64,000 nucleotides of DNA from NCBI GenBank assembly GCA_003510435.1, contig DOMK01000013.1, forward strand, positions 12,135 through 76,134, given 5' to 3'. A program made the translations under genes and the position numbers. The notes under the pieces are model-generated. The model did no database searches and was not told the DNA's origin. It saw only the letters and a program-made list of their open reading frames with translations. The stretch comes from Candidatus Magasanikiibacteriota bacterium. GTDB lineage: Bacteria > Patescibacteriota > Patescibacteriia > Magasanikbacterales > UBA922. Shown in pieces: positions 9,536 to 64,000 of this stretch; the stretch's first letter is position 1; the number at the start of each line of letters is the position of its first letter.

Positions 9536-12136
9536 CTACTCCAAATGTACTCCATCTTCCCAATCCCTCACTTTACTTACAAGTGAAGGATTTTTTTTGA
9601 AGTCAATTCCTCGTGCCAAATCACGTGATAATTTTATCAAATCCATATCCTGCATGGTGGCGAGTTTAAAAGGTGGTAGACCACTCTGGCTTGTGCCATA
9701 AACTTCACCCGGGCCACGAGTTTGGAGATCATACTCAGCAATTTTAAAACCATCAGTATTTTGAGAAAAAAATTGCAATCGTGCCAAAGATTTTTCATTG
9801 TCAGTGTCAGTAAATAAAAAACAATATGATTGATGTAAAGCTCTACCCACCCGACCACGGAATTGATGGAGCTGGGCCAAGCCAAACCTGTCTGCGCCTT
9901 CTATCATCATCACGACAGCATTAGGAATATTTACTCCCACTTCTACGACTGATGTGGAAACTAGTATATCTATTTTTCCACTCGCAAAATCAGCCATAGT
10001 GTTTTCTTTTTCATTTGGCTTTAATTTGCCATGTAAATAACCAACACGTAAATCTTTAAATATCTCCTCAGATAATTTTTTATATTCACTCATTACACTT
10101 TTTTTATCTAAGGAGTAAGGAATAAGGAGTAAGGAATTATTATCAACAAAATCATCATCACTTTTTCCTTTTTCCTTTTTCCTTTTTCCTTCATCAATCA
10201 ACGGACATATCACAAACACCTGTCTCCCCTGTTTAACTTGTGAACGAATAAAATCATAGGCCTTGTTTCTATTTTCACTATCTACCACTCTAGTATCAAT
10301 TGCTTTTCTACCCACTGGCATTTCATTAATAATAGATAAATCCAAATCACCATACAAAGTAAGAGCAAAGGATCTGGGAATCGGGGTCGCAGTCATAGAC
10401 AACAAGTGAGGCCTCATTGCTGACTGACGCAGACTAGACGCAGACTCATTATTACCACGGGCAATATCATAAACAATTCTTTGAATATCCACGCTCTCGT
10501 GAGAAAAATTTATTAACAAAGCCAACTTATACAGTGATCCTTTTAAATATGTCCAAACCTGTCTATTTTCTCTACTACCAACAAACGGAAGGGCTTTTAA
10601 TTCAATGATAATTTTATCTTCAACCACAAAATCTGGACGATAAATTCCTATTTTTTTATTTTCATATTTTATATCTAATACTTTTTCTTTTTCAAATTTT
10701 ATTCCTTCTTTTTTAAATTCCTCTTCCAATGCATTTTGATAAATTACTTCTTTATGTCCTAAACCTAAATTCTTTTTAACATTAAAAATACATCCTCTTA
10801 TTTTGTAAGTCAAATCTTTATATAAAAATCCACTTTTACTTTCCTTCTCCTGTTGTTCTTCCTCTTCTGCGTCGTCTGCGTAAGTCTGCGTAAGTCTGCG
10901 TCGTTGTTCTACTCCGAATCGATGTTGTTCATCTATAATTACTAAACCTAAATTTTTAAACTGTACTTTTTCTGATAATAGAGCGTGGGTTCCAATAATC
11001 AAGTTTATTTGCCCAGTTTTAATTTGTTTAAGTAAATCTTTTTTAATCAAAATACTAGAAGATCGGTGATCACTGATCACTGATTGAGAACGTGTCAACA
11101 GCGCTATTTTAACTTTATCTTCCAACAGCTTTGTCAGCGAATCAAAATGTTGCACGGCCAATATCTCGGTCGGCGCCATTATCACTGCTTGATAATTATT
11201 CAAAACTGTATTATAAAGCGCCATCGCTGCCACGACAGTTTTTCCACTTCCCACATCACCTTCTAACAATCGATTCATAGGTTCATTTTTTTCCAAATCA
11301 CGCAAAATATCCCAAGCCGACACTTTTTGGGCTTTGGTAAGCTGAAAAGGTAAAGAACTAACAAACTCTTTTATTTTTTCTTGCTGAAATTTTATTTCCC
11401 AAGCTTTTGATCGTTTCAAAGATTGACGAATCATTTCCGCGCGTAATTGTAAAATAAATAGTTCTCCAAATTTCAAACGCTTTTTTGCTTGATTTAAGTC
11501 TATTTCATCTATTGGAAAATGGATACCACGCACCGCTTCGGCCAGATAAATCAAATCTGCTTTTTCTAAAATTTCATCTGGTATCCATTCTTTTAGTAAA
11601 TCATGAGTCAAATAAATTATTTGACTAACTAAAAACCTTAATTGTTTATTAGTAACTCCAGTCGTGAGATGATAAATTGGGACAATCCTGGCAGTATGGG
11701 TAGTGTTTTTTTCTCCCAAAGCTTTTTGTTTGGTTTCTTTTTCATAAGACGGCGATGCCATTTGTTTGCCTAGTTTTCCAATTGATAATTTGCCTGATAG
11801 ATAAACTGTATCACCAGGTTTAAAATTCCGAGTAATAAAAGGCTGGCCAAACCAAACAATTTTTAATTTTCCAGTTTCATCATAAACAATCGCCTCTGTC
11901 ATAATTGTTCGTCTTTTAAAAATCCGCCGATTGGAAATAATCTCTATTTTCGCTTTAATTGTCACTTCTTCCCCTACTTCCAAATCAGCAATATTCTTGG
12001 TACTACTATAATCTTGATAGCGAAAAGGTAAATAAAACAACAAATCCTGAATAGTATTTATACCAAGATTTTTTAAATGCCTTTCCATCTTTTTGGCAAT
12101 ATGGTTGATTTGTCCAATAAGTGTGTCTAATTGCAT
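9536..12136 (-). CDS. recG: ATP-dependent DNA helicase RecG carrying an in-frame PD-(D/E)XK (GxxExxY-type) domain insertion
   Basis: 866 aa. Walker A GSGKT, DEQH box, MTATPIPR motif III and an N-terminal wedge region. About 165 extra aa lie between DEQH and motif III. Confidence 0.85.
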   Translation of the reverse strand: MQLDTLIGQINHIAKKMERHLKNLGINTIQDLLFYLPFRYQDYSSTKNIADLEVGEEVTIKAKIEIISNRRIFKRRTIMTEAIVYDETGKLKIVWFGQPFITRNFKPGDTVYLSGKLSIGKLGKQMASPSYEKETKQKALGEKNTTHTARIVPIYHLTTGVTNKQLRFLVSQIIYLTHDLLKEWIPDEILEKADLIYLAEAVRGIHFPIDEIDLNQAKKRLKFGELFILQLRAEMIRQSLKRSKAWEIKFQQEKIKEFVSSLPFQLTKAQKVSAWDILRDLEKNEPMNRLLEGDVGSGKTVVAAMALYNTVLNNYQAVIMAPTEILAVQHFDSLTKLLEDKVKIALLTRSQSVISDHRSSSILIKKDLLKQIKTGQINLIIGTHALLSEKVQFKNLGLVIIDEQHRFGVEQRRRLTQTYADDAEEEEQQEKESKSGFLYKDLTYKIRGCIFNVKKNLGLGHKEVIYQNALEEEFKKEGIKFEKEKVLDIKYENKKIGIYRPDFVVEDKIIIELKALPFVGSRENRQVWTYLKGSLYKLALLINFSHESVDIQRIVYDIARGNNESASSLRQSAMRPHLLSMTATPIPRSFALTLYGDLDLSIINEMPVGRKAIDTRVVDSENRNKAYDFIRSQVKQGRQVFVICPLIDEGKRKKEKGKSDDDFVDNNSLLLIPYSLDKKSVMSEYKKLSEEIFKDLRVGYLHGKLKPNEKENTMADFASGKIDILVSTSVVEVGVNIPNAVVMMIEGADRFGLAQLHQFRGRVGRALHQSYCFLFTDTDNEKSLARLQFFSQNTDGFKIAEYDLQTRGPGEVYGTSQSGLPPFKLATMQDMDLIKLSRDLARGIDFKKNPSLVSKVRDWEDGVHLE

Positions 12137-18464: not shown

Positions 18465-18471
18465 CACTTGT

Positions 18472-18536
18472 CATTCCGAGCGAAACCGATTCGCATCGGC
18501 TGACGAGGTCGAAGATACCCGTAAGGGTGAATCCCT
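18472..18536. repeat. GC-rich short structured element (cattccgag ... acgaggtcgaagata ... gtgaatcc) with an internal hairpin ccgattcgcatcgg
   Basis: Sits just after the dprA stop. Shares blocks with the element after the secY start (about 50598-50641). GC-rich against an AT-rich background. Confidence 0.55.
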
Positions 18537-19355: not shown

Positions 19356-20738
19356 ATGAATTTTGATCAAGCCTACAATTTCATTCTTTCTTTAAGCAAC
19401 CTACCACGAAAAGAATACATGACCGATCCACGACATTGTGGTTGGTATCTTAAACGTCTACAATTTTTTTTAGATTTAATAGGCAATCCAGAAAAGAAAA
19501 TCCCCCACTATATTCATGTGACCGGTACGAGTGGTAAAGGTTCGGTGACAGCCTATCTACATTCTATTCTTCAGGCTTCTGGAAATAAAGTTGGTTCCAC
19601 CTACTCTCCCCACCCCACCATAATTACTGAACGCTGGAAAGTGGAAAACAAATTCATGACCAAAAAAGAATTTGCTGAGATTGTTGAATATATAAAGCCA
19701 AAACTTGATGAATACATTGCCAAAACTCCTTATGACATGTTATCTTTTTTTGAAGTCACAGAAGCGATTGGTCTATTATTTTTTGCAAGAAAAAAAATAA
19801 AATGGGCCGTAATGGAAGTAGCTTGTGGCGGTCGAACTGATGCGAGTAATATTATTCCTTGGAAAGATGTAGCTATAATAACAAATATTGGCGTAGACCA
19901 TATCGGAGTTCTAGGTAATAACAAAAAAGAAATTGCCTATGAAAAAGCTGGCATAATCAAAAAAGGCTCCAGTGTTTTTACCATGGAAAAAAATTCTCAG
20001 ATAAGAAAAATGATTGAAAATGAATGTAAAATACAAAAAATTAAAAACTACTATTATATAAAATCTGGCAAGTTATCAAATGCTGGCATAAACTCAAATG
20101 GCAGTACTTTCGCTTATCATGACGAAACTTTTCAGACTCACGCTCTTGGCCAACATCAAATAAAAAACATTATTCTCTGTATAGAAGTAGCCAAACATTT
20201 AAAAATTTCTACTCATGACATCCAAAAAGGCTTGGGCCATGTCTACCAGCCACTAAGAATGGAAGTCATAAACAAACATCCATTAATAATCTTAGATGGT
20301 GCCCACAATCCTGACAAAATGAGAACCACAGTTGATACACTCAAGCACCTTAGCACCCAAACACCCGAGCACCAGTCTAAAAACTATAACCTACCTGCCC
20401 GCGATGCTAATGCAAGCGTTGCAGGCGGGAAACCTAAAACCTGTAATCTACATTTAATCGTCGGTTTTTCTGGAGACAAAAATATTTCTAAAATGATAAA
20501 ACAACTAGCAACTCTTAAACCAAAAACTATTGCTATTACCAGAAATACCACTAACCCTTTTCGCAAGGTCGCTGATCTACAAATAGTGACCAAATCATTT
20601 AAAAAGTTATTACCAAAAGCTCAAATAAAAATATTTCTTGATCCTCAGACAGCGTTTGACTGGAGTAAAAAACAAACCAAAAAAAATGATATTCTTCTCT
20701 CTACTGGTTCTATCTTTACCAGTGGACAATTGAGGTAA
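19356..20738 (+). CDS. Mur-ligase family protein, folylpolyglutamate synthase/dihydrofolate synthase-like
   Basis: 460 aa. P-loop HVTGTSGKGS and the Mur ligase central and C-terminal layout. Contains a 36-bp in-frame GC-rich element (aa 347-358). Confidence 0.7.
   Translation: MNFDQAYNFILSLSNLPRKEYMTDPRHCGWYLKRLQFFLDLIGNPEKKIPHYIHVTGTSGKGSVTAYLHSILQASGNKVGSTYSPHPTIITERWKVENKFMTKKEFAEIVEYIKPKLDEYIAKTPYDMLSFFEVTEAIGLLFFARKKIKWAVMEVACGGRTDASNIIPWKDVAIITNIGVDHIGVLGNNKKEIAYEKAGIIKKGSSVFTMEKNSQIRKMIENECKIQKIKNYYYIKSGKLSNAGINSNGSTFAYHDETFQTHALGQHQIKNIILCIEVAKHLKISTHDIQKGLGHVYQPLRMEVINKHPLIILDGAHNPDKMRTTVDTLKHLSTQTPEHQSKNYNLPARDANASVAGGKPKTCNLHLIVGFSGDKNISKMIKQLATLKPKTIAITRNTTNPFRKVADLQIVTKSFKKLLPKAQIKIFLDPQTAFDWSKKQTKKNDILLSTGSIFTSGQLR
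20394..20429. repeat. 36-bp GC-rich element inserted in frame (encodes PARDANASVAGG)
   Basis: cctgcccgcgatgctaatgcaagcgttgcaggcggg. A second copy lies in reverse orientation at about 34416-34454, encoding PARNASASVAGG. Confidence 0.7.
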
Positions 20739-25991: not shown

Positions 25992-26198
25992 ATTTTTTAC
26001 TAATCCCGAACCCGCCGTAGTCCGTCAGCTGACGGACGAAGGTGGGGAGGGATCCCTTTTCTATGAATCAAAGGCTGGATTACACCCAAACCTTCGTACC
26101 AGTCGAAAGCGAGATCTCTCCACTCGGAGTTAAATTTATTAATTAATTATTCTATGAAAGTTTTATTATTATTTGGCGTCATGATGACACGGAAAAGG

Positions 26199-26226
26199 GA
26201 TTCCTCACTGACGTTCGGAATGAAGG
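26199..26226. repeat. GC-rich cattccga...ggaatc element overlapping the parA 3' end
   Basis: gattcctcactgacgttcggaatgaag. Its reverse complement encodes the last residues HSERQ and the stop of ParA. Confidence 0.5.
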
Positions 26227-27027: not shown

Positions 27028-27170
27028 GTATCCACAAAAGATATGCCCAGATGCCTGCCTGCCGACGAGGCAGGGCGGAACTGGTACCATGAACCACAAG
27101 GATTCATGACCATACACCCCACGTGGTGCATGGGACGCACAGTATTATTTACAAGAACACAACCAAATAT

Positions 27171-27257
27171 GCCCAGATGGCGGAACTGGTAGACGCACTG
27201 GACTCAAAATCCAGCGGTCGCAAGACCATGAGGGTTCGATTCCCTCTTTGGGCACCA
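27171..27257 (+). tRNA. tRNA-Leu (anticodon CAA), class II with a long variable arm
   Basis: 87 nt ending in an encoded CCA. Anticodon loop CTCAAAA, long extra arm CGGTCGCAAGACCAT, T-loop TTCGATT. The 3' end lies 7 nt before the next ATG. Confidence 0.8.
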
Positions 27258-27264
27258 CAATATT

Positions 27265-28233
27265 ATGCAACTATTTTTTGACCTACTAATTGCTATAATA
27301 ATTATTATAACTGCATTCCCTGCGGTTATTTTATTGTATTCTAGAAAAATTAGAAAGAATTGCTGGGAATATAAGCACAAAAAATCTTCACTAACTATCT
27401 CTATTATTCTACTATTTTTTACTGCTTTAACCGTTTATGGGAGTTTTGTAGAACCAAATTTTCTGATTGTAAATAAGTATAACATTGATTTGCCTAATAT
27501 AAATGAACCAATAAAAATTGTTCTAATCTCTGATCTACAAGCTGGAAAATATAAACAAACAAATTGGACAAAAAAAGTAGTAAATAAAATTTTAACTCTA
27601 ACGCCTGACTTGATATTTATTGGTGGCGATCAAATAGATAATGAAAATTATAATTTTATTGAATTAAGTTATTTGGAACCTTTTAAAAAATTAAGCAACC
27701 AGATCCCTACTTATGCTATTAACGGCAATCATGAATATGGTGTCTCGTGTTTTTATGGTATAAACGAAAAATGTTCTCAAACTGGTGATATGAGTGCAGA
27801 AACCAAAAATGTTTTTGAAAAATTAAACATCAAATATTTAATAAATCAAACTGAAAAAATTACTATAAACAGTTCATCATTTTATCTTTTTGGTGGAGAT
27901 GAATATTGGGCCAAAAAACTAGATTTTTCTAATCTAAAAAATAGAAAAGAAAACATTCCAACCATTGCTCTAATTCACAATCCCTCTTTTATTTTAGACA
28001 ATCATCCATTTTTTGATCTAGTCTTATCGGGCCATACTCATGGCGGACAAATTCGTTTGCCTTTTGTCGGTCCAATTGGGAGAGTAGATAATATTTTACC
28101 AAGTAAATATTATCAAGGAGTACAAGAACTAAGTGACAATACAAAATTATTAGTGACGAGTGGTGTAGGTGAAACTGGAGTACGAGCTAGATTATTCAAT
28201 CCGCCAGAAATTGTATTAATTACTATAAAATAA
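27265..28233 (+). CDS. membrane-anchored calcineurin-like metallophosphoesterase
   Basis: 322 aa. N-terminal TM helices, then GDQID...GNHEYG...GHTHGGQ metal-binding motifs. Confidence 0.75.
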   Translation: MQLFFDLLIAIIIIITAFPAVILLYSRKIRKNCWEYKHKKSSLTISIILLFFTALTVYGSFVEPNFLIVNKYNIDLPNINEPIKIVLISDLQAGKYKQTNWTKKVVNKILTLTPDLIFIGGDQIDNENYNFIELSYLEPFKKLSNQIPTYAINGNHEYGVSCFYGINEKCSQTGDMSAETKNVFEKLNIKYLINQTEKITINSSSFYLFGGDEYWAKKLDFSNLKNRKENIPTIALIHNPSFILDNHPFFDLVLSGHTHGGQIRLPFVGPIGRVDNILPSKYYQGVQELSDNTKLLVTSGVGETGVRARLFNPPEIVLITIK

Positions 28234-28258
28234 ATCCCGATCTTATCGGGATTTTTTA
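28234..28258. terminator. bidirectional terminator hairpin atcccgat-ctt-atcgggat plus T-run
   Basis: Perfect 8-bp stem between two convergent genes, followed by tttttt. Confidence 0.6.
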
Positions 28259-30837: not shown

Positions 30838-30847
30838 ATTGTTAATT

Positions 30848-30894
30848 CATTCCGACCCGCCGATGAGGCGAGGGAGGAATCTTTCCCACCTCGG
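30848..30894. repeat. GC-rich element cattccgacccgccgatgaggcgagggaggaatc in the scpA-scpB spacer
   Basis: About 40 bp, near-identical in reverse complement to 50705-50745 (cattccgaacccgccgatgaggtgaggtgaggaatc). Confidence 0.6.
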
Positions 30895-34172: not shown

Positions 34173-34508
34173 TTATTTTAATGGCAATTTTTCTTGCCGT
34201 TCATTTAATAAATCTTGACTAATTTTAACCCCTTTTTTTGTTAAGCTAACATGGGTAATAAACCATTTGTGTGGCGTCCGTCGACCAAAACCAGTCATAA
34301 ATTCTCTATCAATCAAATGTTCCAAACTTCTAGTAATAATACTTTCTTGATATTTTTCTTTGGCTGGTTCAATTGTCTTACCATAAAAACTCCGGAATAT
34401 TTTCCTGTCTATTTTCCCCCCGCCTGCGACGCTTGCACTAGCATTGCGGGCAGGTCCTTTGTCTAAACACATTAATAAAATATGTTTTTGCAGTAAACTC
34501 AATCTCAT
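34173..34508 (-). CDS. small hypothetical protein whose N-terminal region is encoded by the 36-bp GC-rich element
   Basis: 111 aa, basic. Residues PARNASASVAGG come from the same element found in the folC-like gene. M13 is an alternative start. Confidence 0.35.
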   Translation of the reverse strand: MRLSLLQKHILLMCLDKGPARNASASVAGGGKIDRKIFRSFYGKTIEPAKEKYQESIITRSLEHLIDREFMTGFGRRTPHKWFITHVSLTKKGVKISQDLLNERQEKLPLK

Positions 34509-36380: not shown

Positions 36381-36561
36381 ATAGCATTGATTTAAACAGA
36401 TTAAAACTGATTCAGACAAAAAATTTACCACAAAATCTCTGTGTAATTCTGTCTAAAACAATGCTTATATCTTAGCAAAAACTAACCGATTTGGCAAGCA
36501 AAAAACACACCAATTTTGATGTGCTTTTGAGTCGTCCCGAAGGCGCAGACGACCTTCGGGT

Positions 36562-36771
36562 TCATTCCTTCTTCCTCCTCGAGGGGAATGCCTCCTTGAT
36601 GACACGGTACTCGGACCACGTCATCCACTGACCAGGCACAACACCGAAGATCTCACTGGGTGTTCGCCTGCCACCCGTCTTCTCCGACGGAATGCACTCA
36701 TCCAGCGCTTCCGGCGGGTAACGACGCAGTTCGTCCGTCTGAACAGATTTTAGTGCAAACACCTTGGGCAT
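36562..36771 (-). CDS. GC-rich 69-aa hypothetical protein (mini-cassette 3)
   Basis: MPKVFALKSVQTDELRRYPPEALDECIPSEKTGGRRTPSEIFGVVPGQWMTWSEYRVIKEAFPSRRKKE. It has its own TATAAT (plus 36799-36804) and a GGAG RBS, followed by a GC-rich double hairpin and a T-run (36494-36560). GC content is clearly above the surroundings. Confidence 0.5.
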   Translation of the reverse strand: MPKVFALKSVQTDELRRYPPEALDECIPSEKTGGRRTPSEIFGVVPGQWMTWSEYRVIKEAFPSRRKKE

Positions 36772-36873
36772 GTTGTTCTCCAAATCTATGTTTATTTTAT
36801 TATACACCCACAAAATTTTTATGCAACAAAAAAACACACTAATTTTAATGTGTTCACCATTTCCGTGTTCTCC

Positions 36874-41488: not shown

Positions 41489-41799
41489 ATAAATTACATC
41501 AATTTTAATCTGTTTAAATCTGTCTAAATCAATGCCAAAATTAAAGACTCTCCCGTCGGGGAGAGTCGTTTGTAGTGTTAGTCTGTTTTAGGACACTAAA
41601 AAACTCGCCCGCCGGGTTGGGGTGTATTATTATTAGTATTACTTGTCTGCCGTAGAGGCAGATTTGTTCGAAACATTTGTCTCATATGTTTAAATAATAC
41701 AACTACTTTTGAATAACGTCAAATAACTTATCCACACCGCACTAGAACCTCCTTACAGTCGGTTCGGTGCAGTGCAAGCACCTTTAAACAAAAGCACCA

Positions 41800-41828
41800 T
41801 TGACAAAACTACTTTTCTGTGATATAAT
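41800..41828 (+). promoter_or_regulatory. consensus sigma70 promoter TTGACA-N17-TATAAT (mini-cassette 1)
   Basis: ttgaca aaactacttttctgtga tataat. An AGGAGG RBS at 41901-41906 lies 7 nt before the ATG at 41914. Confidence 0.6.
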
Positions 41829-41913
41829 ATTTTGTTAAAAAACAGTTGAAAAACTAGATTTATTTGGCTAAATATAGACAAATTTGTCCGGTCTTTCAAC
41901 AGGAGGAAACGCC

Positions 41914-42084
41914 ATGGAATTAATCCTGGCAATAATCCTCGGCCTGATTGGGTTTGCCATCCTGAAGCTGATTCTTCGCACCGCTCTGTTCGGTGTAAAG
42001 ATCGGCTGTGGGTTGCTCACCCTCGCCATAATACTCGCGATCGTGTCGGGCCTGTGGCTGAAAGCCGGGGAGGGGTTCGTGTGA
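41914..42084 (+). CDS. GC-rich 56-aa hydrophobic peptide with two predicted TM helices (mini-cassette 1)
   Basis: MELILAIILGLIGFAILKLILRTALFGVKIGCGLLTLAIILAIVSGLWLKAGEGFV. Strong RBS. The stop codon sits in the loop of the hairpin gggttcg-tgtgaa-cgaaccc. Codon usage is GC-rich, unlike neighbouring genes. Confidence 0.5.
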   Translation: MELILAIILGLIGFAILKLILRTALFGVKIGCGLLTLAIILAIVSGLWLKAGEGFV

Positions 42085-42131
42085 ACGAACCCGCCCATTA
42101 TTAATTTTATATTTTAAAATTAATATAGGAT

Positions 42132-42160
42132 AAAAAATTCTGTTTTACACAGAATTTTTT
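42132..42160. terminator. bidirectional terminator aaaaaa-ttctg-ttttaca-cagaa-tttttt
   Basis: Hairpin flanked by A- and T-runs between recO (minus) and cassette 1 (plus). Confidence 0.55.
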
Positions 42161-42770
42161 ATTTTAATATTTTGCCCCAATCATTAACTTTTCTATCTGT
42201 ATTATACAATAAAAATTTATATATAAAATCATGCACTGATTTTTTGTATTCTAGTTTATTTATGATTTCCCAATTTTCTTTACTTAACATTTCTAAATCA
42301 TTTTTTATTCCAGTCGGAATTTTATCAGACTCAACAATATCTAAACCAAGATAAGACAATAACCTTACAACATAAGAATCTAACAAGTGTATACCGTATA
42401 CTGTATACTGATTATCAACATATTCCAACCAACTCACAATCAAATCAAATATTCTCTCATCTTTCTCTCCTTCGTGTAAAAGTTTATCCAAAGTTGAAAC
42501 CAAAAATCCCGCGGCCAAACTTTTTTGCAATTTTTTTCTAATACTAACAAAATAATTTATTGGTTGAACTGCTCCTAAATAATTTAATTCCTTACCAAGA
42601 ATAACTTCTGCTTCTACCAAAGAAAACGGCTCTAAATGAGCCGAATTTTTTGAAGTAATTTTTTTTACCCCTCTCGTCAAAATTTCCATTTTTCCTTTTT
42701 CCAAAGTATAAAATGAGATAATTTGATCAGCCTCGCGAAAATCACGGCGATAGAGGACAAATGCTAACAT
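42159..42770 (-). CDS. recO: DNA repair protein RecO
   Basis: 203 aa. N-terminal OB-fold signature (YRRDFREADQIISFYT...). No Zn finger, which is common in short RecO forms. Confidence 0.75.
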   Translation of the reverse strand: MLAFVLYRRDFREADQIISFYTLEKGKMEILTRGVKKITSKNSAHLEPFSLVEAEVILGKELNYLGAVQPINYFVSIRKKLQKSLAAGFLVSTLDKLLHEGEKDERIFDLIVSWLEYVDNQYTVYGIHLLDSYVVRLLSYLGLDIVESDKIPTGIKNDLEMLSKENWEIINKLEYKKSVHDFIYKFLLYNTDRKVNDWGKILK

Positions 42771-46951: not shown

Positions 46952-47191
46952 ATGGTTAATATTTTACCCTAAAATAAGGAAAAAAGCAACCAAAAACTCC
47001 CTATTCAAGGGAGTTTTTATTTTTTTAAATTTTGTAAATCTTTTACTTCTTTTTCTAAATTTTTTATTAATTTTTTCTGTTCATCTGGTTCTAAATCTGG
47101 AAAAAGCTTAAGCCAAAAATTGAGTTCTGTTTCATTCTCGCCTAATTGAATAAGTTTTTTAACTAAATCACTAATTGATAATGACATATTA

Positions 47192-47815
47192 TTATGCTAA
47201 TTCTTCTTTTCCACTTAATTTTCTATATGGTTTAGCCACTATTAACTTTTCATAATTAACTGAAATAAAATCACCAACAGTTTTCAATATACTAGACAGC
47301 TTCGGCATTTTATCTTTTAAAACTGCAGAGACTTTGTCTAAAGCCATAGGTAAAGCGTCAAAATTGGCCATATAATAAGAAACTGTTCCTCCAACACCAG
47401 CGGCTGCATATTCACCAACATAAGCAGCTGCATAAGCAAATATTGCAGCTGTAGTTGCTACCATGTAGTTAAATTGTTCAGTTACTTCCAAATCTCTACC
47501 ACCTTCTTTTTCAGTGATTGTTCCTTTGGCTAAATTATACTCACCATAAAACGGCGCATTATTTATAAGCTTTAAAAATAAAGGGGCTTTTACCAATTGC
47601 ATAATGCGATCTAAAAAAATCTTTCTAAGTAACCTTAATCTTTCTCCTCTTGCTTTCTCTTTAACCTTTTCCACTGTTTTTGGTCCTTCAGATAATTCCA
47701 AATTACCCAACTCTGTACTAGTAGATTCGACAATTAAATCATCGGCTGTATCATCTACTGGATTTTCTTTTTCCCAAGGTGTCATAAATTGTCTCATGTC
47801 TGATTCTGATCTCAT
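47192..47815 (-). CDS. hypothetical protein between map and adk
   Basis: 207 aa with an acidic N-terminus and an Ala/Gly/Tyr-rich hydrophobic stretch. No motif recognised. Confidence 0.35.
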   Translation of the reverse strand: MRSESDMRQFMTPWEKENPVDDTADDLIVESTSTELGNLELSEGPKTVEKVKEKARGERLRLLRKIFLDRIMQLVKAPLFLKLINNAPFYGEYNLAKGTITEKEGGRDLEVTEQFNYMVATTAAIFAYAAAYVGEYAAAGVGGTVSYYMANFDALPMALDKVSAVLKDKMPKLSSILKTVGDFISVNYEKLIVAKPYRKLSGKEELA

Positions 47816-47819
47816 AGAT

Positions 47820-48479
47820 TTATTTCAAAATTTTTTCAATTTCCTTATCAACTTTATCAATATCAATCTCACCATCTACAGTTTTTAAGACTCCCAAATC
47901 TTGGTAATAATCCAAAATTGGTCTAATGGCTGTATTCCCTTGTTCAATAATTCTCTTTTTGGCTGACTCGGGATTATCATCTTCACGAATTATTAATTTA
48001 CCCCTACATTCTGGACAATCAAACTTGGCTTCATTTTCTAGAGAATAAGGCAATATATATCCACAATCTGGACAAATTTTACGTCGAGTCAAACGATTAA
48101 AACTAGTCTTGTCAGATAAAGCAATTTCAATTACCAAAATTTCATTTTCTAAACGCTTGTTAGTAAAATATTCTTGGTATTTTTTGGCTTGCTCTACATT
48201 GCGAATCGCCCCATCTAACAAAACCCCTCTACCTGAATCTAAATTTTTATCCATAGCCGAAAAAGCTAGCTTGTATATCAAATCATCAGCTACTAGTTTA
48301 CCAGCTTTCATGTCATCTAATTTTTGTTTATCTGTTGGGTCAGCATTTGGATCTTTATCCAAAGCGCGCAATAAATCTCCAGTGGAAATATGCGCCAAAT
48401 CATATCGACCAACTAATTTTCTTGCTTGGGTGCCCTTACCACTCCCGGGGACGCCCATTAATATTATTACTTTTTTCAT
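47820..48479 (-). CDS. adk: adenylate kinase with a Zn-lid
   Basis: 219 aa. P-loop GVPGSGKGTQ and lid cysteines CPDCG...CPEC. Confidence 0.9.
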   Translation of the reverse strand: MKKVIILMGVPGSGKGTQARKLVGRYDLAHISTGDLLRALDKDPNADPTDKQKLDDMKAGKLVADDLIYKLAFSAMDKNLDSGRGVLLDGAIRNVEQAKKYQEYFTNKRLENEILVIEIALSDKTSFNRLTRRKICPDCGYILPYSLENEAKFDCPECRGKLIIREDDNPESAKKRIIEQGNTAIRPILDYYQDLGVLKTVDGEIDIDKVDKEIEKILK

Positions 48480-48552
48480 AGCATTGATTAAAACTGATTT
48501 AGACTGATTTAAACGATTAAATTTCTGTTTTAATCTGTCTAAATCAATGCTT
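48480..48552. repeat. TIR-bounded spacer element, copy D (gcattgattaaaactgatttagactgattt ... ctgtctaaatcaatgc)
   Basis: Near-identical to 52760-52844 over about 70 bp. Confidence 0.7.
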
Positions 48553-48834: not shown

Positions 48835-48892
48835 ATTTTAATAATTAATTTTGCTTAAATTAGCAAATTTATTCTATCATAAAACAAAGGCA

Positions 48893-48921
48893 TTGACAAA
48901 TATATATATGTGTGATAAAAT
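48893..48921 (+). promoter_or_regulatory. promoter TTGACA-N17-TAAAAT (mini-cassette 2)
   Basis: ttgaca aatatatatatgtgtga taaaat. A 5'UTR hairpin tgtgggt...acccaca follows, then RBS GGAGGG at 48976-48981 and the ATG at 48988. Confidence 0.55.
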
Positions 48922-48987
48922 AATTTGTCTTGTGGGTTACTTACACCCACAGATAGCATACAACCGATCTTACCTGGAGGGAAGAAA

Positions 48988-49176
48988 ATGCAAATTCGTT
49001 TTCTAGACATCGTTGCCTTGGTCGTTCAGGTACTAGTGGTCCTAGGTGGTTTGTTACTCACAATACTCAGTGAGACCGTGTGGGATCTGTCGGTTGGAAT
49101 CGCGACAACCTACAGCGGAGTACGGGCGATAAAAGGCATCTTCAAAGAAATGAGGACGCCTCCACCAGCCGATTAA
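48988..49176 (+). CDS. GC-rich 62-aa hydrophobic peptide (mini-cassette 2)
   Basis: MQIRFLDIVALVVQVLVVLGGLLLTILSETVWDLSVGIATTYSGVRAIKGIFKEMRTPPPAD. One long hydrophobic span. GC-rich codons. Confidence 0.5.
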   Translation: MQIRFLDIVALVVQVLVVLGGLLLTILSETVWDLSVGIATTYSGVRAIKGIFKEMRTPPPAD

Positions 49177-49256
49177 GTGAGGGGGCAGTCAGTTCCAAGC
49201 CCCCCAGAGCAATAAAACATTTATTTTTCTGGGGGACTGATTGCCTTAATAATAAA

Positions 49257-49286
49257 ACCAGCTGTTTTTAAACGGCTGGTTTTTTT
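49257..49286 (+). terminator. intrinsic terminator accagc-N12-gctggt plus a T7 run
   Basis: Downstream of the cassette-2 ORF. Preceded by G/C-tract hairpins (gggggc...gccccc). Confidence 0.6.
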
Positions 49287-49319: not shown

Positions 49320-50591
49320 TTACATCCTATCATACTCATGTACCTCAATCTGAGAATCAATCTGCTTGGCAGTTTCAATCGCTACTGACACAACGATCAA
49401 AAGTGAAGTACCACCGATTACTAATGACTGAGTACCAGTAAAAGCCCGAAGAACTAATGGCATAATCGCAATTAAACCCAAGAACAAAGCACCAACGAAA
49501 ATTAATCGATTCATGGTCTTGCCTAAATATTCTTCAGTTTGTTTACCAGGACGAATCCCAGGAATAAAACCACCCTGTCTTTGTAAATTTTCAGCCATTT
49601 TTTGAGGATGAAAAATGACAGCCGTATAAAAATATGTAAAACCAAATACTAAAATAAAATAGAGTAAAGCGTAAAATAGCTGATTATTAAAAATATTCAC
49701 TATAAACTTAGCAGCTGTGGCAGAAAAACCAGCGCCATTTACAAAAAACTGAGCAATCATTGGCGGAAACAAAACCACTGAGATAGCAAAGATAATCGGA
49801 ATTACACCAGCCATATTTACGCGCAAAGGTAAATGGGTGCTATTGCCACCATAGGTTTTATTACCCCGAATTTGTTTGGCATAACTAACAGGAATATTTC
49901 TTTGTCCTTCACTAATGATAACCACACCAACAATCGTACCAACAGCAATAGCTACAAATAACAAATAAGTAACTAAATCAGCTGGATTATAATTTATTAC
50001 CAAATTTTGTACAACGTTTGGTAAATTGGCTACGATACCAGCAAAGATAAGAAGTGAAATACCATTGCCAATTTTCTTTTCAGTTATTAATTCACCAATC
50101 CACATTAAAAATACTGTACCCGCAGAAATTATAATCATGATGGAAGCTAATTTCCAATAGGTTAAATCTGGAATAATATTATTTTGTGATTGATTCAAAA
50201 GCTTGATCATACCAAAAGCTTGCAACAAAGCCAAAGGCACAGTTGCCAGTCTGGTATACATATTGATTTTTTGTTGACCCGCTTCACCCTCTTTTTGCAT
50301 TTCTTCCAAACGAGGAATAACCATGGCTAACAACTGAAAAATAATTGAAGATGTAATATATGGTGACACACCCATGAGCACAATAGAAAAATTTTCCATG
50401 GTGCCACCAGAAAAAACATTTAATAAACCTAAAATTTGATTACCAGATAAAAATTTTGCCAAAGCCACTGTGTCTACCCCTGGAATCGGAACATGAGCTG
50501 CAAATCTAAAAACAATAAGCAGTCCTAAAACAAATAGGACTCGATTGCGTAAATCTTTAATTTTCCAAATTCGTCTTATCTTTTCCCACAT
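49320..50591 (-). CDS. secY: preprotein translocase subunit SecY
   Basis: 423 aa, 10 TM helices, conserved SecY motifs. Confidence 0.9.
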   Translation of the reverse strand: MWEKIRRIWKIKDLRNRVLFVLGLLIVFRFAAHVPIPGVDTVALAKFLSGNQILGLLNVFSGGTMENFSIVLMGVSPYITSSIIFQLLAMVIPRLEEMQKEGEAGQQKINMYTRLATVPLALLQAFGMIKLLNQSQNNIIPDLTYWKLASIMIIISAGTVFLMWIGELITEKKIGNGISLLIFAGIVANLPNVVQNLVINYNPADLVTYLLFVAIAVGTIVGVVIISEGQRNIPVSYAKQIRGNKTYGGNSTHLPLRVNMAGVIPIIFAISVVLFPPMIAQFFVNGAGFSATAAKFIVNIFNNQLFYALLYFILVFGFTYFYTAVIFHPQKMAENLQRQGGFIPGIRPGKQTEEYLGKTMNRLIFVGALFLGLIAIMPLVLRAFTGTQSLVIGGTSLLIVVSVAIETAKQIDSQIEVHEYDRM

Positions 50592-50595
50592 ATCA

Positions 50596-50745
50596 TCGTT
50601 TCATTCCGAGTTTACGAGGTCGAAGATACTCTTGAGTGAATCTTTTTTACCCCGCGACTCTTTAAAACCATTGGCTAATAATTTGAAAAAGTTTATTTTA
50701 GAAAAGATTCCTCACCTCACCTCATCGGCGGGTTCGGAATGAACT
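50596..50745. repeat. two GC-rich short elements in the rplO-secY spacer
   Basis: About 50598-50641: cattccgagtttacgaggtcgaagatactcttgagtgaatc, related to 18472-18536. About 50705-50745: gattcctcacctcacctcatcggcgggttcggaatgaac, the reverse complement of 30848-30894. Coordinates are within about 3 nt. Confidence 0.6.
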
Positions 50746-51187
50746 AAAAAACTATTTTTGAACCACTCTTTTCTATCAATTCAACGGCTTTCTTACTTGC
50801 CAAACAACTTTTAATAGTAATTTTCTTTTTCAATTCACCTTTAGCAACAATTTTTACTCCCTTAGTAGGATGGCCAATTACACCTTTTTTATCAAGATAG
50901 CGTGGAGTAACCAAATCACCTTCTTTAACAATTCTTTCCAAAGTATCCAAGGTAACAGTTTCTTTCTTACTATAAATACTCTTGAAACCACGAAGTTTTG
51001 GTACTTTTAATAAAGAAGCTTTAAAAGCTCTAATTTGGGTCCGACTCTTGCCACCAGAACGAGATCTCTGACCTTTCAAACCACGCGCTGAATAAGTACC
51101 TTTACCAGAGGCATTACCACGACCAACTCTTTTTCCTTTTCGTTTTATTCCTGTACCAGGTTTAATTGTACTAGCAGTTAATACCAT
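50744..51187 (-). CDS. rplO: 50S ribosomal protein L15
   Basis: 147 aa, Gly/Arg-rich N-terminus. Lies between rpsE and secY. Confidence 0.9.
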   Translation of the reverse strand: MVLTASTIKPGTGIKRKGKRVGRGNASGKGTYSARGLKGQRSRSGGKSRTQIRAFKASLLKVPKLRGFKSIYSKKETVTLDTLERIVKEGDLVTPRYLDKKGVIGHPTKGVKIVAKGELKKKITIKSCLASKKAVELIEKSGSKIVF

Positions 51188-52759: not shown

Positions 52760-52844
52760 AGCATTGATTAAAACTGATTTAGACTGATTTCAGATAATTA
52801 AACATCTGTTTTAATCTGTCTAAATCAATGTTTATTTAGTTTAT
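52760..52844. repeat. TIR-bounded spacer element, copy E, between rpsH and rplF
   Basis: gcattgattaaaactgatttagactgatttcagataattaaacatctgttttaatctgtctaaatcaatg. Confidence 0.7.
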
Positions 52845-62780: not shown

Positions 62781-62853
62781 GGGGATATGGTGGGGACAAA
62801 CCCTAATCCTGAGCGTAGTGAAGCGAAGCGAAACGGAGCCGAAGGATCCCCTT
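62779..62853. repeat. GC-rich element with 8-bp palindromic ends (aaggggat ... atcccctt)
   Basis: About 75 nt. Its right part (cgaaggatcccctttttct) resembles 26040-26075 (cgaaggtggggagggatcccttttct). Confidence 0.5.
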
Positions 62854-63062
62854 TTTCTCTGCACTAAAAAAGTCTTAAATTTCTAATATCTAATTTCTAA
62901 TTAACCTAATAAAATACCAAATAACAAAATCCAAATTCCAAATCAATTTTAAACTTAAGATTACTAAATTAATATCCACACCACTTACATTGACAACTCT
63001 CTCTCTCTGTTTGTTAGGATAAGATGTCGTGCATCGAACGCACGAAGATGAAGGAGGCAGAC

Positions 63063-63395
63063 ATGGCGATTGTCACCATCCGGTTGTACCGGAAAAATGG
63101 CAAAAGGGGGGTTGAGGTAATCAAAAAAAAGCATTACCCGCGCCTCCAACGGTCACTTACCCGCTACATGGCCTCGGTCGATGGAGAACACCTCGCCCGC
63201 TCATGGAACACAGCAGGGCTGGCCGAGGTAGACGGTGAATGGTTTGTCACCGTCGATGGAGATGGTAAGGCCAGCATGCCGGAAAAACTGAGAAGCCATC
63301 TCTGGATCTACTATGGCTTCAACAGGTTCCTAGCAAGGATCTACAAGGGCCTAACCAGTGACGATGAACACCTTCCCGCCTTTCGCCCCTCCTAG
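63063..63395 (+). CDS. GC-rich 110-aa hypothetical soluble protein (mini-cassette 4)
   Basis: MAIVTIRLYRKNGKRGVEVIKKKHYPRL.... RBS AAGGAGG 5 nt upstream. A TTGACA box lies at 62990-62995, with a weak -10 TAGGAT after a 19-nt spacer. Very GC-rich relative to its neighbours. An alternative upstream ATG at 63024 lacks an RBS. Confidence 0.45.
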   Translation: MAIVTIRLYRKNGKRGVEVIKKKHYPRLQRSLTRYMASVDGEHLARSWNTAGLAEVDGEWFVTVDGDGKASMPEKLRSHLWIYYGFNRFLARIYKGLTSDDEHLPAFRPS

Positions 63396-63654
63396 CGTTC
63401 GCTTCGCCCCGGTTCAGGGGCAACATGCCGGTTGCGCGTCAGCCGATGACCGAGAGGGAAAACCCTCCGGGTGTCGGAGGGTGTGAGCATGCGGACAATA
63501 CAACGAAAGAATCGTCCACCACAGCTAGATTTTCATTATTGAAAATTTAACTAAGGAGTTTGGGACGATTTTTTTGTTTACACAAGCAATCCTATCCCCT
63601 AACCCCTTTCCCCTACAAAAGGGCAAGGGGAATTAAAGCCCCTCCACTTTTTAA

Positions 63655-63674
63655 GGGGAGGGGTTGGGGTGGGG
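63655..63674 (+). other. canonical G-quadruplex-forming motif GGGGAGGGGTTGGGGTGGGG, with complementary C-tracts 60 nt upstream
   Basis: Four G4 tracts separated by 1-2 nt loops, directly seen. It is preceded by cccctaacccctttcccct and cccctcc tracts that can pair with it. Confidence 0.6.
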
Positions 63675-63708
63675 TTTTATTCCTTATTCTTTATTCCTTA
63701 TTCCTTTT

Positions 63709-63927
63709 TTACACCGGTTCCTCATAAAACACCGGCTCTTCATTTTCTCCCAAAGGTTCTTCTAGCCAATCAGCTGTGTTTTCTTCAGTTTTTTTATAAG
63801 GAATATTTTGTGGTCCAGTAATACTCTCTTCACCAATGTCATTATAATTAAAATCAAAATCTGGTATGTCCTCTACTTTAATTTCATCAGCATCTTTTTT
63901 TGAAAAAAATTCACTTGGTATCTCCAC
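63709..63927 (-). CDS. acidic hypothetical protein, likely N-terminally truncated by the window edge
   Basis: D/E-rich. The open frame continues to the end of the window. Confidence 0.3.
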   Translation of the reverse strand: MEIPSEFFSKKDADEIKVEDIPDFDFNYNDIGEESITGPQNIPYKKTEENTADWLEEPLGENEEPVFYEEPV

Positions 63928-64000
63928 ACCCTCATCGTCTTCATCTTCATTATCAAAATCAAAAGAATCATCTTCATCATCTAACCAATTTGGTGTATTG

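What the first reader, a model, noticed from the sequence alone, without database searches (positions are those of the whole stretch)
50592..50745. Two GC-rich short elements of the 'cattccga...ggaatc' family fill the rplO-secY spacer
The 150-bp spacer contains, at about 50598-50641, cattccgagtttacgaggtcgaagatactcttgagtgaatc. This shares blocks with 18472-18536. The dprA-side copy additionally carries an inserted mini-hairpin, ccgattcgcatcgg.

At about 50705-50745 it contains gattcctcacctcacctcatcggcgggttcggaatgaac. This is the reverse complement of 30848-30894 (cattccgacccgccgatgaggcgagggaggaatc), and a shorter relative overlaps the parA stop at 26199-26226.

The family is modular: attcc/ggaat termini with variable GC-rich cores, sometimes carrying extra hairpins. 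This resembles REP/BIME or Correia-type elements.
Basis: seen in the sequence. Interest (0 to 1): 0.6.

Follow-up and report, generated by a model that had tools for sequence, protein, structure and literature searches.

The report
Hairpin repeats of a GIY-YIG nuclease element
The gap between the rplO and secY genes of this groundwater Patescibacteria genome is filled by a back-to-back pair of short hairpin repeats of a known class (CGTC-type REPs, also called Ssn-related motifs) that elsewhere flank a tiny GIY-YIG single-strand DNA nuclease gene, so it is a real but ordinary small mobile-element relic, here seen in a lineage where the class had not been reported.

Summary
Two related GC-rich units lie in the 152-bp rplO-secY spacer: L at 50706-50743 (-) and K at 50600-50642 (+). 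Five relatives lie elsewhere in the window: B, F, D, C and M. The genome is a Candidatus Magasanikbacteria (CPR) genome with about 34% GC.

K and L point outwards. Their ends form a perfect 10-bp inverted repeat, TTCATTCCGA...TCGGAATGAA. L starts right after the rplO stop codon, and K ends 9 nt before the secY ATG.

The sister species (SecY 97% identical) has an unrelated spacer here. It carries a homologous head-out dimer in a different spacer, ruvX-mgtE, so the composite comes and goes.

The units fit the CGTC-tagged REP / Ssn-related-motif class (Di Nocera 2013; Chenal 2025). In that class the hairpins flank a roughly 95-125 aa GIY-YIG nuclease (Ssn), which cuts them as single-stranded DNA.

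- The window's parA-parB spacer is a decayed unit-ssn-unit cassette.
- Six intact or nearly intact CPR examples are flanked on both sides by such units. One carries an L/F-type left unit.

No RAYT or other transposase was found in the 20 ORFs scanned. The units are not Correia-like and match no Rfam family. K itself is a degenerate unit that folds poorly.

Verdict: a new member of a known kind, of modest interest.

The parts
50706..50743 (-). Unit L, the 'left' unit. It reads TTCATTCCGA-ACCCGCC-GATGA-GGTGAGG-TGA-GGAATC, starts at the base after the rplO stop codon and is in the sense orientation of the operon.
   Evidence: As ssDNA it folds at -6.1 kcal/mol, z = -1.9. Its ATTCCGAACCCGCC and GGTGAGGAATC blocks match the left unit that flanks an intact GIY-YIG gene in L528.
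50643..50705 (-). Inner spacer of the dimer, AT-rich. Its ends extend the inverted repeat (GAATCTTTT / AAAAGATTC).
   Evidence: It aligns with the inner spacer of the sister species' dimer at another locus: score 14 against shuffles of -6.1 +/- 4.3, reached by 0 of 2000 shuffles. No remnant of an ssn ORF was detectable.
50600..50642 (+). Unit K, the 'right' unit, pointing the opposite way. It reads TTCATTCCGAG-TTTACGAGGTCGAAGATAC-TCTTGAGTGAATC. It is a degenerate B-type copy that lacks B's inner hairpin. Its head ends 9 nt before the secY ATG.
   Evidence: It folds poorly as ssDNA (-3.3 kcal/mol, z = 0.03).
18470..18535 (+). Unit B, the fuller relative of K. It has a TGTC tag and starts 5 nt after the dprA stop codon.
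   Evidence: ssDNA fold z = -3.2. dprA identity from Pfam. Absent from the sister species L497.
30846..30881 (+). Unit F, the same subtype as L. It sits in the scpA-scpB spacer with its head 9 nt before the scpB ATG.
   Evidence: ssDNA fold z = -2.1. Absent from L497. A 95% identical copy lies upstream of rpsL in another organism (L495).
26199..26224 (-). Unit D, the left unit of a decayed cassette. It replaces the last codons of parA, so that ParA ends ...SLHSERQ*.
   Evidence: A D-like unit sits 15 nt after the parA stop codon in L499.
26057..26182 (-). Remnant of a GIY-YIG (ssn-like) gene. It consists of a start stub MTPNNNKTFIE* (26182-26147) followed, from 26146, by the 3' part LINKFNSEWRDLAFDWYEGLGVIQPLIHRKGIP..., which reads on into unit C (26056-26000).
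   Evidence: Aligned to the L499 cassette. The remnant is 76% identical over 37 aa to the C-terminus of intact protein P0122, E = 6e-21. Coordinates.
26000..26056 (+). Unit C, the right unit of the decayed cassette. It has an extra inner hairpin. Its head CTA is the reverse complement of the remnant ORF's TAG stop codon, 8 nt before the parB ATG.
   Evidence: ssDNA fold -16.1 kcal/mol, z = -4.0.
62803..62851 (+). Unit M (CTAATCCTGAGCG...GAAGGATCCCC), upstream of the tuf promoter region.

Best explanation
The rplO-secY spacer is occupied by one composite element: a head-out dimer of two hairpin repeats of the CGTC-tagged REP / Ssn-related-motif (SRM) class.

**The full-length element.** In its full form, a left unit and an inverted right unit flank a 95-126 aa GIY-YIG nuclease gene (ssn). 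In Neisseria and Wolbachia the nuclease binds the hairpin only as single-stranded DNA, on one strand only. It cuts a few nucleotides 5' of the tag (PMC11893778).

**What K/L is.** It is a nuclease-less miniature copy or relic of such a cassette. It replaced the whole spacer, from the rplO stop codon to 9 nt before the secY ATG.

**Shown here:**
- family membership by sequence, hairpin and head/tail covariation;
- the head-out architecture;
- recent gain or loss relative to the sister species;
- a homologous dimer at another site in the sister species;
- physical linkage of such units to GIY-YIG genes in CPR genomes;
- a decayed cassette in this window.

**Inferred:**
- that an Ssn enzyme of this lineage recognises these particular units;
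- that it, or host replication and repair acting on the cut ssDNA, spreads them;
- that K/L is now passive.

**Likely present-day effect.** The pair is co-transcribed inside the spc-operon mRNA. There L forms a hairpin followed by a U-rich stretch just after rplO, which might damp read-through or stabilise the rplO 3' end. K is probably too degenerate to be a working site.
For: **1. Family.** Seven window units share the head (T)TCAT/TAAT + YCYGA and the tail GRGGRATC(CC)TTT.
- The terminal stem co-varies.
- In metagenomic copies, head triplets TCC, CCC, TCT and TGC are followed by the complementary tails GGA, GGG, AGA and GCA in 27, 27, 52 and 110 cases. A different tail follows in 2, 7, 6 and 4 cases.
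- The C immediately after the palindrome is the base most crucial for SsnA binding (PMC11893778). It is present in all seven window units.

**2. Architecture.**
- K and L have their tags on the outside and a 63-nt spacer. This is the 'HH dimer' with a 20-100 bp spacer that predominates among CGTC REPs (PMC3733652).
- Identical architecture appears in viral-contig copies such as L134.

**3. Turnover.**
- Alignment with the sister species breaks exactly at 50592 and 50745. Its spacer is unrelated.
- B, C, D and F are also absent there.
- The sister species has a homologous dimer in its ruvX-mgtE spacer, where the window has none.

**4. Enzyme link.**
- GIY-YIG ORFs flanked on both sides by such units occur in L058, L344, L499, L524, L528, L529 and L535. 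The GIY-YIG assignment is from Pfam PF01541.
- The left unit in L528 is of the L/F subtype.
- The window's parA-parB spacer is a deletion derivative of such a cassette.

**5. Published association.** The SRM-ssnA-SRM arrangement and the ssDNA cleavage are described in PMC11893778.
Against: - K folds no better than shuffled sequence (z = 0.03). M and D are also weak.
- Only B has a published tag variant (TGTC). The other units have TTC or CTA in place of GTC.
- The published degenerate SRM pattern matches none of the window units. It also matches none of the units flanking the CPR GIY-YIG genes. Membership therefore rests on resemblance and linkage, not on the authors' own criterion.
- No intact ssn gene lies in the 64-kb window. 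The rest of the genome could not be searched.
- The K/L inner spacer carries no recognisable ssn remnant.
- Assignment of the CPR GIY-YIG proteins to CDD family cd10448 was not testable. NCBIfam gave no match.
- No biochemistry exists for any CPR Ssn.
- Only one of about 216 metagenomic units examined had a GIY-YIG gene next to it.
Confidence: 0.7

Rival explanations
1. The units are locally evolved RNA-level signals in the spc-operon transcript. These could be intrinsic terminators or attenuators, or 3'-end stabilising hairpins. They would not be copies of a mobile element.
For: - Every unit is followed by a T-rich stretch.
- L lies in the sense orientation directly after rplO. One stem position in L is kept as a G-U pair where F has G-C, which reads well only on that strand.
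- Many relatives carry unrelated long hairpins in the same rplO-secY spacer. A hairpin there may therefore be selected, or at least tolerated.
Against: - Orientation relative to the flanking genes is mixed: 3 sense, 3 antisense and 1 in a divergent spacer.
- The terminator scan did not report K or L. It picked only small end-hairpins inside B and C.
- The clearest terminator-like sites in the window are site-specific simple stems flanked by A and T runs.
- The same head and tail recur at unrelated loci and in unrelated organisms, and they flank GIY-YIG genes.
- The sister species lacks the units at all five sites that could be compared.
- A terminator between rplO and secY would also cut off secY, and no convincing promoter lies in the 63-nt gap.
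Confidence: 0.15
2. The 147-bp composite is a conventional MITE, mobilised in trans by a DDE or other IS transposase through its 10-bp terminal inverted repeats. This is the Correia-like model.
For: - The terminal inverted repeat TTCATTCCGA/TCGGAATGAA is perfect over 10 bp.
- The composite is homologous, including its inner spacer, to an element at a different locus in the sister species.
Against: - No target-site duplication is seen at either copy.
- The 'inverted repeats' are simply the heads of single units. Those units also occur alone (B, F, M) and are hairpins themselves.
- No transposase appears among the 20 window ORFs scanned, which include those next to the units, and the Pfam labels recorded for the genes around the units in L497, L499, L524, L528, L529 and L535 include none.
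- The only gene found between such ends is a GIY-YIG nuclease.
Confidence: 0.08
3. The units are classical REP/REPIN elements spread by a REP-associated tyrosine transposase (RAYT).
For: The units are short palindromes arranged as inverted doublets, as in REPINs.
Against: - There is no GTAG tag.
- No Y1 or RAYT gene was found among the 20 window ORFs scanned or in the Pfam labels recorded for genes around the units in L497, L499, L524, L528, L529 and L535.
- CGTC-type REPs are reported to lack any associated tyrosine transposase (PMC3733652).
- The gene that is linked to them is GIY-YIG.
Confidence: 0.04

Closest known systems
Ssn-related motifs (SRM; NTS in Neisseria) with the GIY-YIG ssDNA nuclease SsnA (Chenal et al. 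2025, Nat Commun 16:2388, PMC11893778)
   Same: - A directional hairpin repeat: a GTC-type 5' tag, a palindrome that starts AT...AT, and a C right after the palindrome. The NTS is CGTCATTCCCGCGMAVGCGGGAATCYRG.
- Units flank a small single-domain GIY-YIG gene on both sides. This is seen here in seven loci (six CPR loci and one high-GC viral contig) and as a decayed copy in the window.
- Many units occur without the gene.
   Different: - The window units have a 5-bp terminal stem plus variable, modular cores, and run 26-66 nt. The NTS has an 8-bp stem and a 4-nt loop.
- The tag is TTC or CTA in 6 of the 7 units.
- The published SRM search pattern matches none of them.
- Some CPR proteins are 123-126 aa long. 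Their C-terminal extension is encoded by the right unit, and the right unit's tag doubles as the stop codon.
- The host is Patescibacteria, which is not mentioned in the parts of that paper read here.
- There is no biochemistry for this lineage.
CGTC-tagged REP superfamily, families CGTC-1 to -4, including Neisseria dRS3 and Rickettsia RPE-4 and RPE-6 (Di Nocera, De Gregorio, Rocco 2013, PMC3733652)
   Same: - The tag is CGTC, TGTC or CCTC, and the stems begin with A-T and T-A pairs.
- There is a short 3' tail.
- Dimers are mostly of the 'HH' type, with tags on the outside and 20-100 bp spacers, and are often heterodimers.
- Units lie close to or overlap the 3' ends of genes, and are occasionally intragenic.
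- No associated transposase is known.
- Published peptides such as VIPAKAGI back-translate (my own back-translation of the peptides) to GTCATTCCCGCGAAGGCGGGAATC.
   Different: - The published families have 8-9 bp stems and 4-5 nt loops. Here the stem is interrupted and the cores vary.
- The tail here is CCC or CTT, not CCA.
- Those families were reported from Proteobacteria, Chlorobi, Bacteroidetes, Spirochaetes and Thermotogae, not from CPR.
REPIN / RAYT system of Pseudomonas and enterobacterial REP/BIME
   Same: Inverted doublets of short palindromes that form a larger hairpin. A nuclease gene is flanked by the repeats it is thought to act on, as in the REPtron idea.
   Different: Those systems have a GTAG tag and a Y1 (HUH) transposase. 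Neither is present here.
Correia elements (CREE) of Neisseria
   Same: A small composite with terminal inverted repeats, about 150 bp long, sitting in intergenic DNA.
   Different: From my own knowledge of them, Correia elements have 26-bp inverted repeats, a TA target duplication and an IHF site. None of these is seen here, and there is no sequence resemblance.

Membership tests
Ssn-related motif (SRM) / NTS | A hairpin-forming palindrome of 20-50 nt | tested here: met
   L, F, C and B fold as ssDNA hairpins with z from -1.9 to -4.0. K, D and M fold weakly. The terminal stem co-varies.
Ssn-related motif (SRM) / NTS | A conserved non-palindromic 5' tag (GTC) that gives the unit an orientation | tested here: inconclusive
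   B has TGTC. K, L, F and D have NTTC. C and M have CTA. The orientation is clear, but the tag differs from GTC in 6 of the 7 units.
Ssn-related motif (SRM) / NTS | A cytosine immediately 3' of the palindrome, the base most important for SsnA binding | tested here: met
   All seven units read ...GRAT-C. The criterion comes from PMC11893778.
Ssn-related motif (SRM) / NTS | A match to the published degenerate pattern HGTCWYN(0-2)YYVSBRHN(0-5)WNVSBRGN(0-2)RNCYNB | tested here: not met
   None of the seven window units matches, and none of the units flanking CPR GIY-YIG genes matches. The NTS control does match.
Ssn-related motif (SRM) / NTS | Physical association with a small single-domain GIY-YIG gene flanked by the units | tested here: met
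   A decayed cassette lies in the window at 26000-26224. Intact or nearly intact cassettes occur in L058, L499, L524, L528, L529, L535 and L344. The GIY-YIG assignment is Pfam PF01541.
Ssn-related motif (SRM) / NTS | The partner protein belongs to CDD family cd10448 and cuts the motif as ssDNA only | not testable with these tools
   No CDD library is available. NCBIfam gave no hit. The only PDB relatives are UPF0213 proteins, with E = 3e-7. Biochemistry would be needed.
CGTC-tagged REP superfamily | A terminal CGTC, TGTC or CCTC tag, with stems starting with complementary A/T pairs at positions 1 and 2 | tested here: inconclusive
   AT...AT is present in all seven units. A published tag variant appears only in B.
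CGTC-tagged REP superfamily | An 8-9 bp stem and a 4-5 nt loop | tested here: not met
   The terminal stem is 4-5 bp, followed by internal loops and inner stems. Units are 26-66 nt long.
CGTC-tagged REP superfamily | Predominantly HH dimers (tags outside) with 20-100 bp spacers | tested here: met
   K/L has a 63-nt spacer. The L005 dimer has 64 nt. L529 and L535 carry dimers on both sides of the gene.
GTAG REP / REPIN (RAYT-linked) | A GTAG tag and an associated Y1 transposase | tested here: not met
   No unit has a GTAG tag. No Y1 or RAYT domain appears among the 20 window ORFs scanned.
Correia-type MITE | Long terminal inverted repeats with a TA target-site duplication | tested here: not met
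   The flanks are ...TAG| and |aacgatgat in the window, and ...TAG| and |tgtttaat in L005. There is no duplication.
Any Rfam RNA family | A covariance-model match | tested here: not met
   The window yields only four tRNAs at gathering score. In the spacer nothing scores below E = 1.

The most novel reading that the evidence does not exclude
In Patescibacteria, the unit-ssn-unit cassettes and their nuclease-less head-out dimers may be site-selective 'operon-spacer' elements.

**Placement.**
- They occupy the junction between two co-directional housekeeping genes. Pairs seen here are rplO-secY, ruvX-mgtE, parA-parB, scpA-scpB, atpA-atpG, ftsW-murG and murG-murC.
- The left end starts at or within the upstream gene's last codons.
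- The right end stops 8-9 nt before the next ATG in 6 of the 8 right ends measured.
- The tag of the right unit serves as the nuclease gene's stop codon.

**Repeated invasion.** The parA-parB spacer has been taken over by different unit subtypes in different lineages.

**What it would imply.** This would suggest homing to a structural feature of gene junctions. One possibility is ssDNA exposed during transcription or replication and cut by Ssn. That would supply the missing spreading mechanism for the 'transposase-less' CGTC REPs.
Probability: 0.3. Interest if true: 0.6.

Novelty: new member of a known kind. Interest (0 to 1): 0.38.

Why it matters
The finding places a CPR/Patescibacteria genome inside the Ssn/SRM (CGTC-REP) system that was characterised biochemically only in 2025.

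- It shows that the published search motif misses a whole set of variants: a 5-bp stem with modular cores, and the widespread GTCAT-xyz-GAGCGAAGCGA-z'y'x'-ATC form.
- It provides matched filled and empty sites between sister species. These are the raw material for working out how these repeats spread without a transposase.

For annotating this genome, it explains three things: the odd 152-bp gap inside the spc operon, the altered ParA C-terminus, and the spurious small ORFs that read through the repeats. The K/L pair itself is most likely an inert relic.

Tried and rejected
- **Rfam.** A gathering-threshold search and a permissive search of the spacer and of the whole window found only tRNAs.
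- **Consensus terminator scan.** K and L were not reported, and unit orientations are mixed, so a pure terminator reading was dropped.
- **Paper searches for the literal sequences.** No papers were found.
- **B/K core in viral contigs.** ACGAGGTCGAAGATAC gave 20 hits. All lie inside coding sequence with no unit context, so they are chance matches.
- **L/F core.** It gave nothing in viral contigs. In metagenome contigs it gave two hits, one real (L495) and one a chance hit in coding sequence.
- **Units in relatives' loci.** A first scan with a GC filter found essentially no units in the 76 relatives' ribosomal loci. That scan missed the L005 dimer, which a later scan found.
- **Phage-encoded GIY-YIG relatives.** Of 24 viral loci, none is flanked by units except L500, which is the same contig as L344. 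Phage homing-endonuclease genes are therefore a different context.
- **Published SRM regex.** It gave no matches to the units.
- **NCBIfam and PDB sequence searches.** These could not place the CPR GIY-YIG proteins more finely.
- **ssn remnant inside the K/L spacer.** A short-word blastn search found none.
- **Pfam scan for a transposase or RAYT.** Twenty window ORFs were scanned and none matched.

Full report
**What is there.**

The window is AT-rich, about 34% GC. Around the finding the genes lie on the minus strand: rplO at 50744..51187 and secY at 49320..50591. Pfam labels on an identical groundwater contig confirm both genes. SecY-based retrieval of relatives places the organism in Candidatus Magasanikbacteria, within Patescibacteria/CPR.

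- Unit K is at 50600-50642 on the plus strand.
- Unit L is at 50743-50706 on the minus strand.

The motif CATTCCGA occurs five times in the window against 1.5 expected, and none of 100 shuffles reached five. All five occurrences lie in short GC-rich units. GAGGTCGAAGATA is shared exactly by K and by B at 18470-18535.

A GC-island scan and a structured scan added two more members, C at 26000-26056 and M at 62803-62851. Aligned in one orientation, the seven units share three features:
- a head (T)TCATTCCGA or CTAATCCYGA;
- a variable core;
- a tail GRGGRATC(CC)TTT.

The terminal stem co-varies as attcc/ggaat, atccc/gggat and atcct/aggat. Folded as single-stranded DNA, C and B are strong hairpins (z = -4.0 and -3.2) and L and F are moderate (about -2). 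D, M and K are weak, and K folds no better than shuffled sequence. K is best read as a B-type unit that has lost B's inner hairpin.

**Architecture in the spacer.**

K and L point away from each other. L starts at the base after the rplO stop codon TAG. The two tails, GAATCTTTT and AAAAGATTC, face each other across 63 nt. K's head ends 9 nt before the secY ATG.

The outer ends form a perfect 10-bp inverted repeat, TTCATTCCGA...TCGGAATGAA. The whole spacer, folded as RNA, closes on that stem (-45.3 kcal/mol, z = -2.4). No Rfam family matches it.

**It comes and goes.**

The closest relative is MAG JBAQFA01, represented by loci L005 and L497. Its SecY is 97% identical and its ParB 94% identical to the window's, and its DNA is about 82-95% identical across the aligned blocks.
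- Its alignment with the window breaks exactly at 50592 and 50745.
- Its 113-bp spacer is unrelated, an AT-rich hairpin built from short tandem words.
- It also lacks B, C, D and F at the orthologous sites.

Conversely, it carries a head-out dimer in its ruvX-mgtE spacer, where the window has only 49 nt. That dimer has the same geometry as K/L: TAG|TTCATCCCGA..., a 64-nt spacer, then ...TCGGAATGA, 9 nt and ATG. Its inner spacer aligns with that of K/L with a score of 14, against -6.1 +/- 4.3 for shuffles, reached by 0 of 2000. The roughly 150-bp composite is therefore a repeated unit sitting at different sites in sister genomes.

A near-identical F-type unit lies upstream of rpsL in an unrelated 42%-GC contig.

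**What family.**

Scans of viral contigs with head variants showed a very widespread form, GTCAT-xyz-GAGCGAAGCGA-z'y'x'-ATC. The tail triplet tracks the head triplet, with 27, 27, 52 and 110 concordant cases against 2, 7, 6 and 4 cases with a different tail. These copies are often arranged as head-out dimers.

The literature supplies the name.
- Di Nocera et al. 2013 (PMC3733652) described CGTC-tagged REPs. Their features are a CGTC, TGTC or CCTC tag, stems starting AT, a short tail, mostly 'HH' dimers with the tags outside and 20-100 bp spacers, and no associated transposase. The class includes Neisseria dRS3 and Rickettsia RPE-4 and RPE-6.
- Chenal et al. 2025 (PMC11893778) showed that the Neisseria version (NTS, CGTCATTCCCGCGMAVGCGGGAATCYRG) and related 'Ssn-related motifs' flank a 94-aa GIY-YIG gene, ssnA.
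  - The protein binds the hairpin only as ssDNA, on one strand, and cuts a few nucleotides 5' of it.
  - The three bases before the palindrome matter for cutting.
  - The C after the palindrome matters most for binding.

**The link is visible here.**

In L499 (ParB 80% identical), the parA-parB spacer holds three parts in order:
- a D-like unit;
- a GIY-YIG ORF interrupted by one stop codon;
- an inverted C-like unit.

The window's own parA-parB spacer aligns to it. In the window it reads D, a start stub MTPNNNKTFIE*, and then the 3' part LINKFNSEWRDLAFDWYEGLGVIQPLIHRKGIP..., which runs into C. That 3' part is 76% identical to the C-terminus of the intact protein P0122, with E = 6e-21. The window therefore carries a cassette whose catalytic core has been deleted. 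D has also replaced the last codons of parA, so that ParA ends ...SLHSERQ*.

Intact GIY-YIG genes flanked on both sides by such units were found in every CPR locus examined:
- L058;
- L524, between ftsW and murG;
- L528, between atpA and atpG;
- L529;
- L535, between murG and murC.

The same arrangement occurs on a high-GC viral contig, L344/L500. The left unit in L528, AATTCCGAACCCGCCACAGCGGGTGAGGAATCCC, is of the L/F subtype.

In the 123-126 aa proteins, the right unit encodes the C-terminus (...RKGIPxxxRD*). Its tag is the reverse complement of the stop codon, so TCA, TTA and CTA correspond to TGA, TAA and TAG. Another relative, L539, has a head-out dimer of a different subtype in its parA-parB spacer.

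**Caveats.**

- The authors' degenerate SRM pattern matches none of these units.
- Only B has a published tag variant.
- The stems are shorter and the cores longer than in the published families.
- CDD assignment and biochemistry could not be done.
- No intact ssn gene and no transposase was found in the window: Pfam scans of 20 ORFs found none, and the six-frame GIY-YIG search returned no window ORF.
- Most metagenomic units have no GIY-YIG neighbour.

**How it most likely works.**

The units are ssDNA hairpin sites of an Ssn-type GIY-YIG nuclease. Cassettes and their nuclease-less dimers lodge in spacers between co-directional genes and are lost again. K/L is such a dimer, and K has decayed. 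The enzymatic steps are inferred from Neisseria and Wolbachia, not shown for this lineage.

On the mRNA, L gives a hairpin plus a U-rich stretch directly after rplO and could affect read-through. The mixed orientations of the family, the absence of the units from the sister species, and the linkage to a nuclease gene all argue against a primary terminator role.

One regularity remains unexplained. The head of the right-hand unit lies 8-9 nt before the next gene's ATG in K, F, C, L499, L528 and the L005 dimer. The genome shows no Shine-Dalgarno motifs upstream of its genes.

**Verdict.**

The 'REP-like' reading is right in kind but wrong in its specific analogies to RAYT, BIME and Correia elements. 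This is a new member, with variant features, of a known and recently characterised system, now seen in a candidate-phyla bacterium. The interest is modest.

Noticed in passing
window 20389-20430 and 34402-34459: A second repeat family consists of a GC-rich hairpin of about 36 nt, CCTGCCCGCRATGCTARTGCAAGCGTYGCAGGCGGG. It is inserted in frame, in the sense orientation, in two protein-coding genes: the folC/Mur-ligase-like ORF 19356..20738 and ORF 34173..34508. Each insertion adds about 12 aa (PARDANASVAGG and PARNASASVAGG) that the sister-species orthologues lack. This resembles the in-frame palindromic elements of Rickettsia. The sister orthologue of the second gene instead carries an SFDSAQDK...SFSFAQDK insert.
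   Followed up: partly
window 27038-27146, next to tRNA-Leu at 27171-27254: This GC-rich island begins with a copy of the 5' part of the adjacent tRNA-Leu, interrupted by a 21-nt hairpin. On the minus strand it folds at -51 kcal/mol. It is absent from the sister species. In relatives L538 and L539, a GIY-YIG ORF that resembles YhbQ/UPF0213 proteins by eye (family not tested) lies next to the same tRNA. In L538 it comes with a similar partial tRNA duplication.
   Followed up: partly
window 41739-42176, 47021-47826, 48879-49281; also 36440-36870 and 62900-64000: The first three segments are absent from the sister species, and two of them carry GC-rich islands in this 34%-GC genome. Their ORFs have no Pfam match: a 66-aa hydrophobic ORF at 41884..42084, a 207-aa ORF at 47192..47815, an 83-aa ORF at 48925..49176, a 91-aa ORF at 36562..36837 and a 123-aa ORF at 63024..63395. 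No Rfam family matches these regions.
   Followed up: partly
L005 9887-10000; L008, L010, L018, L054, L060, L077 just upstream of position 10001; window spacers such as 48480-48520 and 52760-52800: Many relatives carry long imperfect inverted repeats in the rplO-secY spacer. These are built from short AT-rich tandem words and are unrelated in sequence between genomes. In the window, the 31 nt upstream of adk and of rplF are identical (aaatcagtctaaatcagttttaatcaatgct ATG). Several other spacers share word-repeat motifs.
   Followed up: no
window, upstream of all 61 listed ORFs: Hardly any gene has a Shine-Dalgarno-like motif. The starts are preceded by AT-rich stretches such as aataatat ATG. 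The GGAGG-like strings inside the units are therefore unlikely to act as ribosome-binding sites.
   Followed up: no
viral-contig loci L085-L474, for example L134 752-840 and L368: The very widespread form GTCAT-xyz-GAGCGAAGCGA-z'y'x'-ATC contains GCGAAGC. From my own knowledge, this heptamer is an unusually stable DNA mini-hairpin, and here it is flanked by tandem G-A mismatches. The form is not captured by the published SRM pattern. It occurs as singles, as head-out dimers and as tandem arrays.
   Followed up: partly
L053 17150-17700: A GIY-YIG ORF that resembles YhbQ/UPF0213 proteins by eye (family not tested) in a Buchananbacteria contig is flanked by 22-bp inverted repeats of a different kind, ACCCCGTAGTAGAATTTCCAAT...ATTGGAAATTTCACTACGGGGT. 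These contain GTAG. This suggests that other small GIY-YIG genes also sit in inverted-repeat cassettes.
   Followed up: no
window 28232-28254: A plain bidirectional terminator-like hairpin, AAATCCCGAT-aag-ATCGGGATTT, lies between convergent genes. It shares the ATCCCGA string with the family but has no tag, core or tail. It was counted as a false positive of the structured scan.
   Followed up: yes
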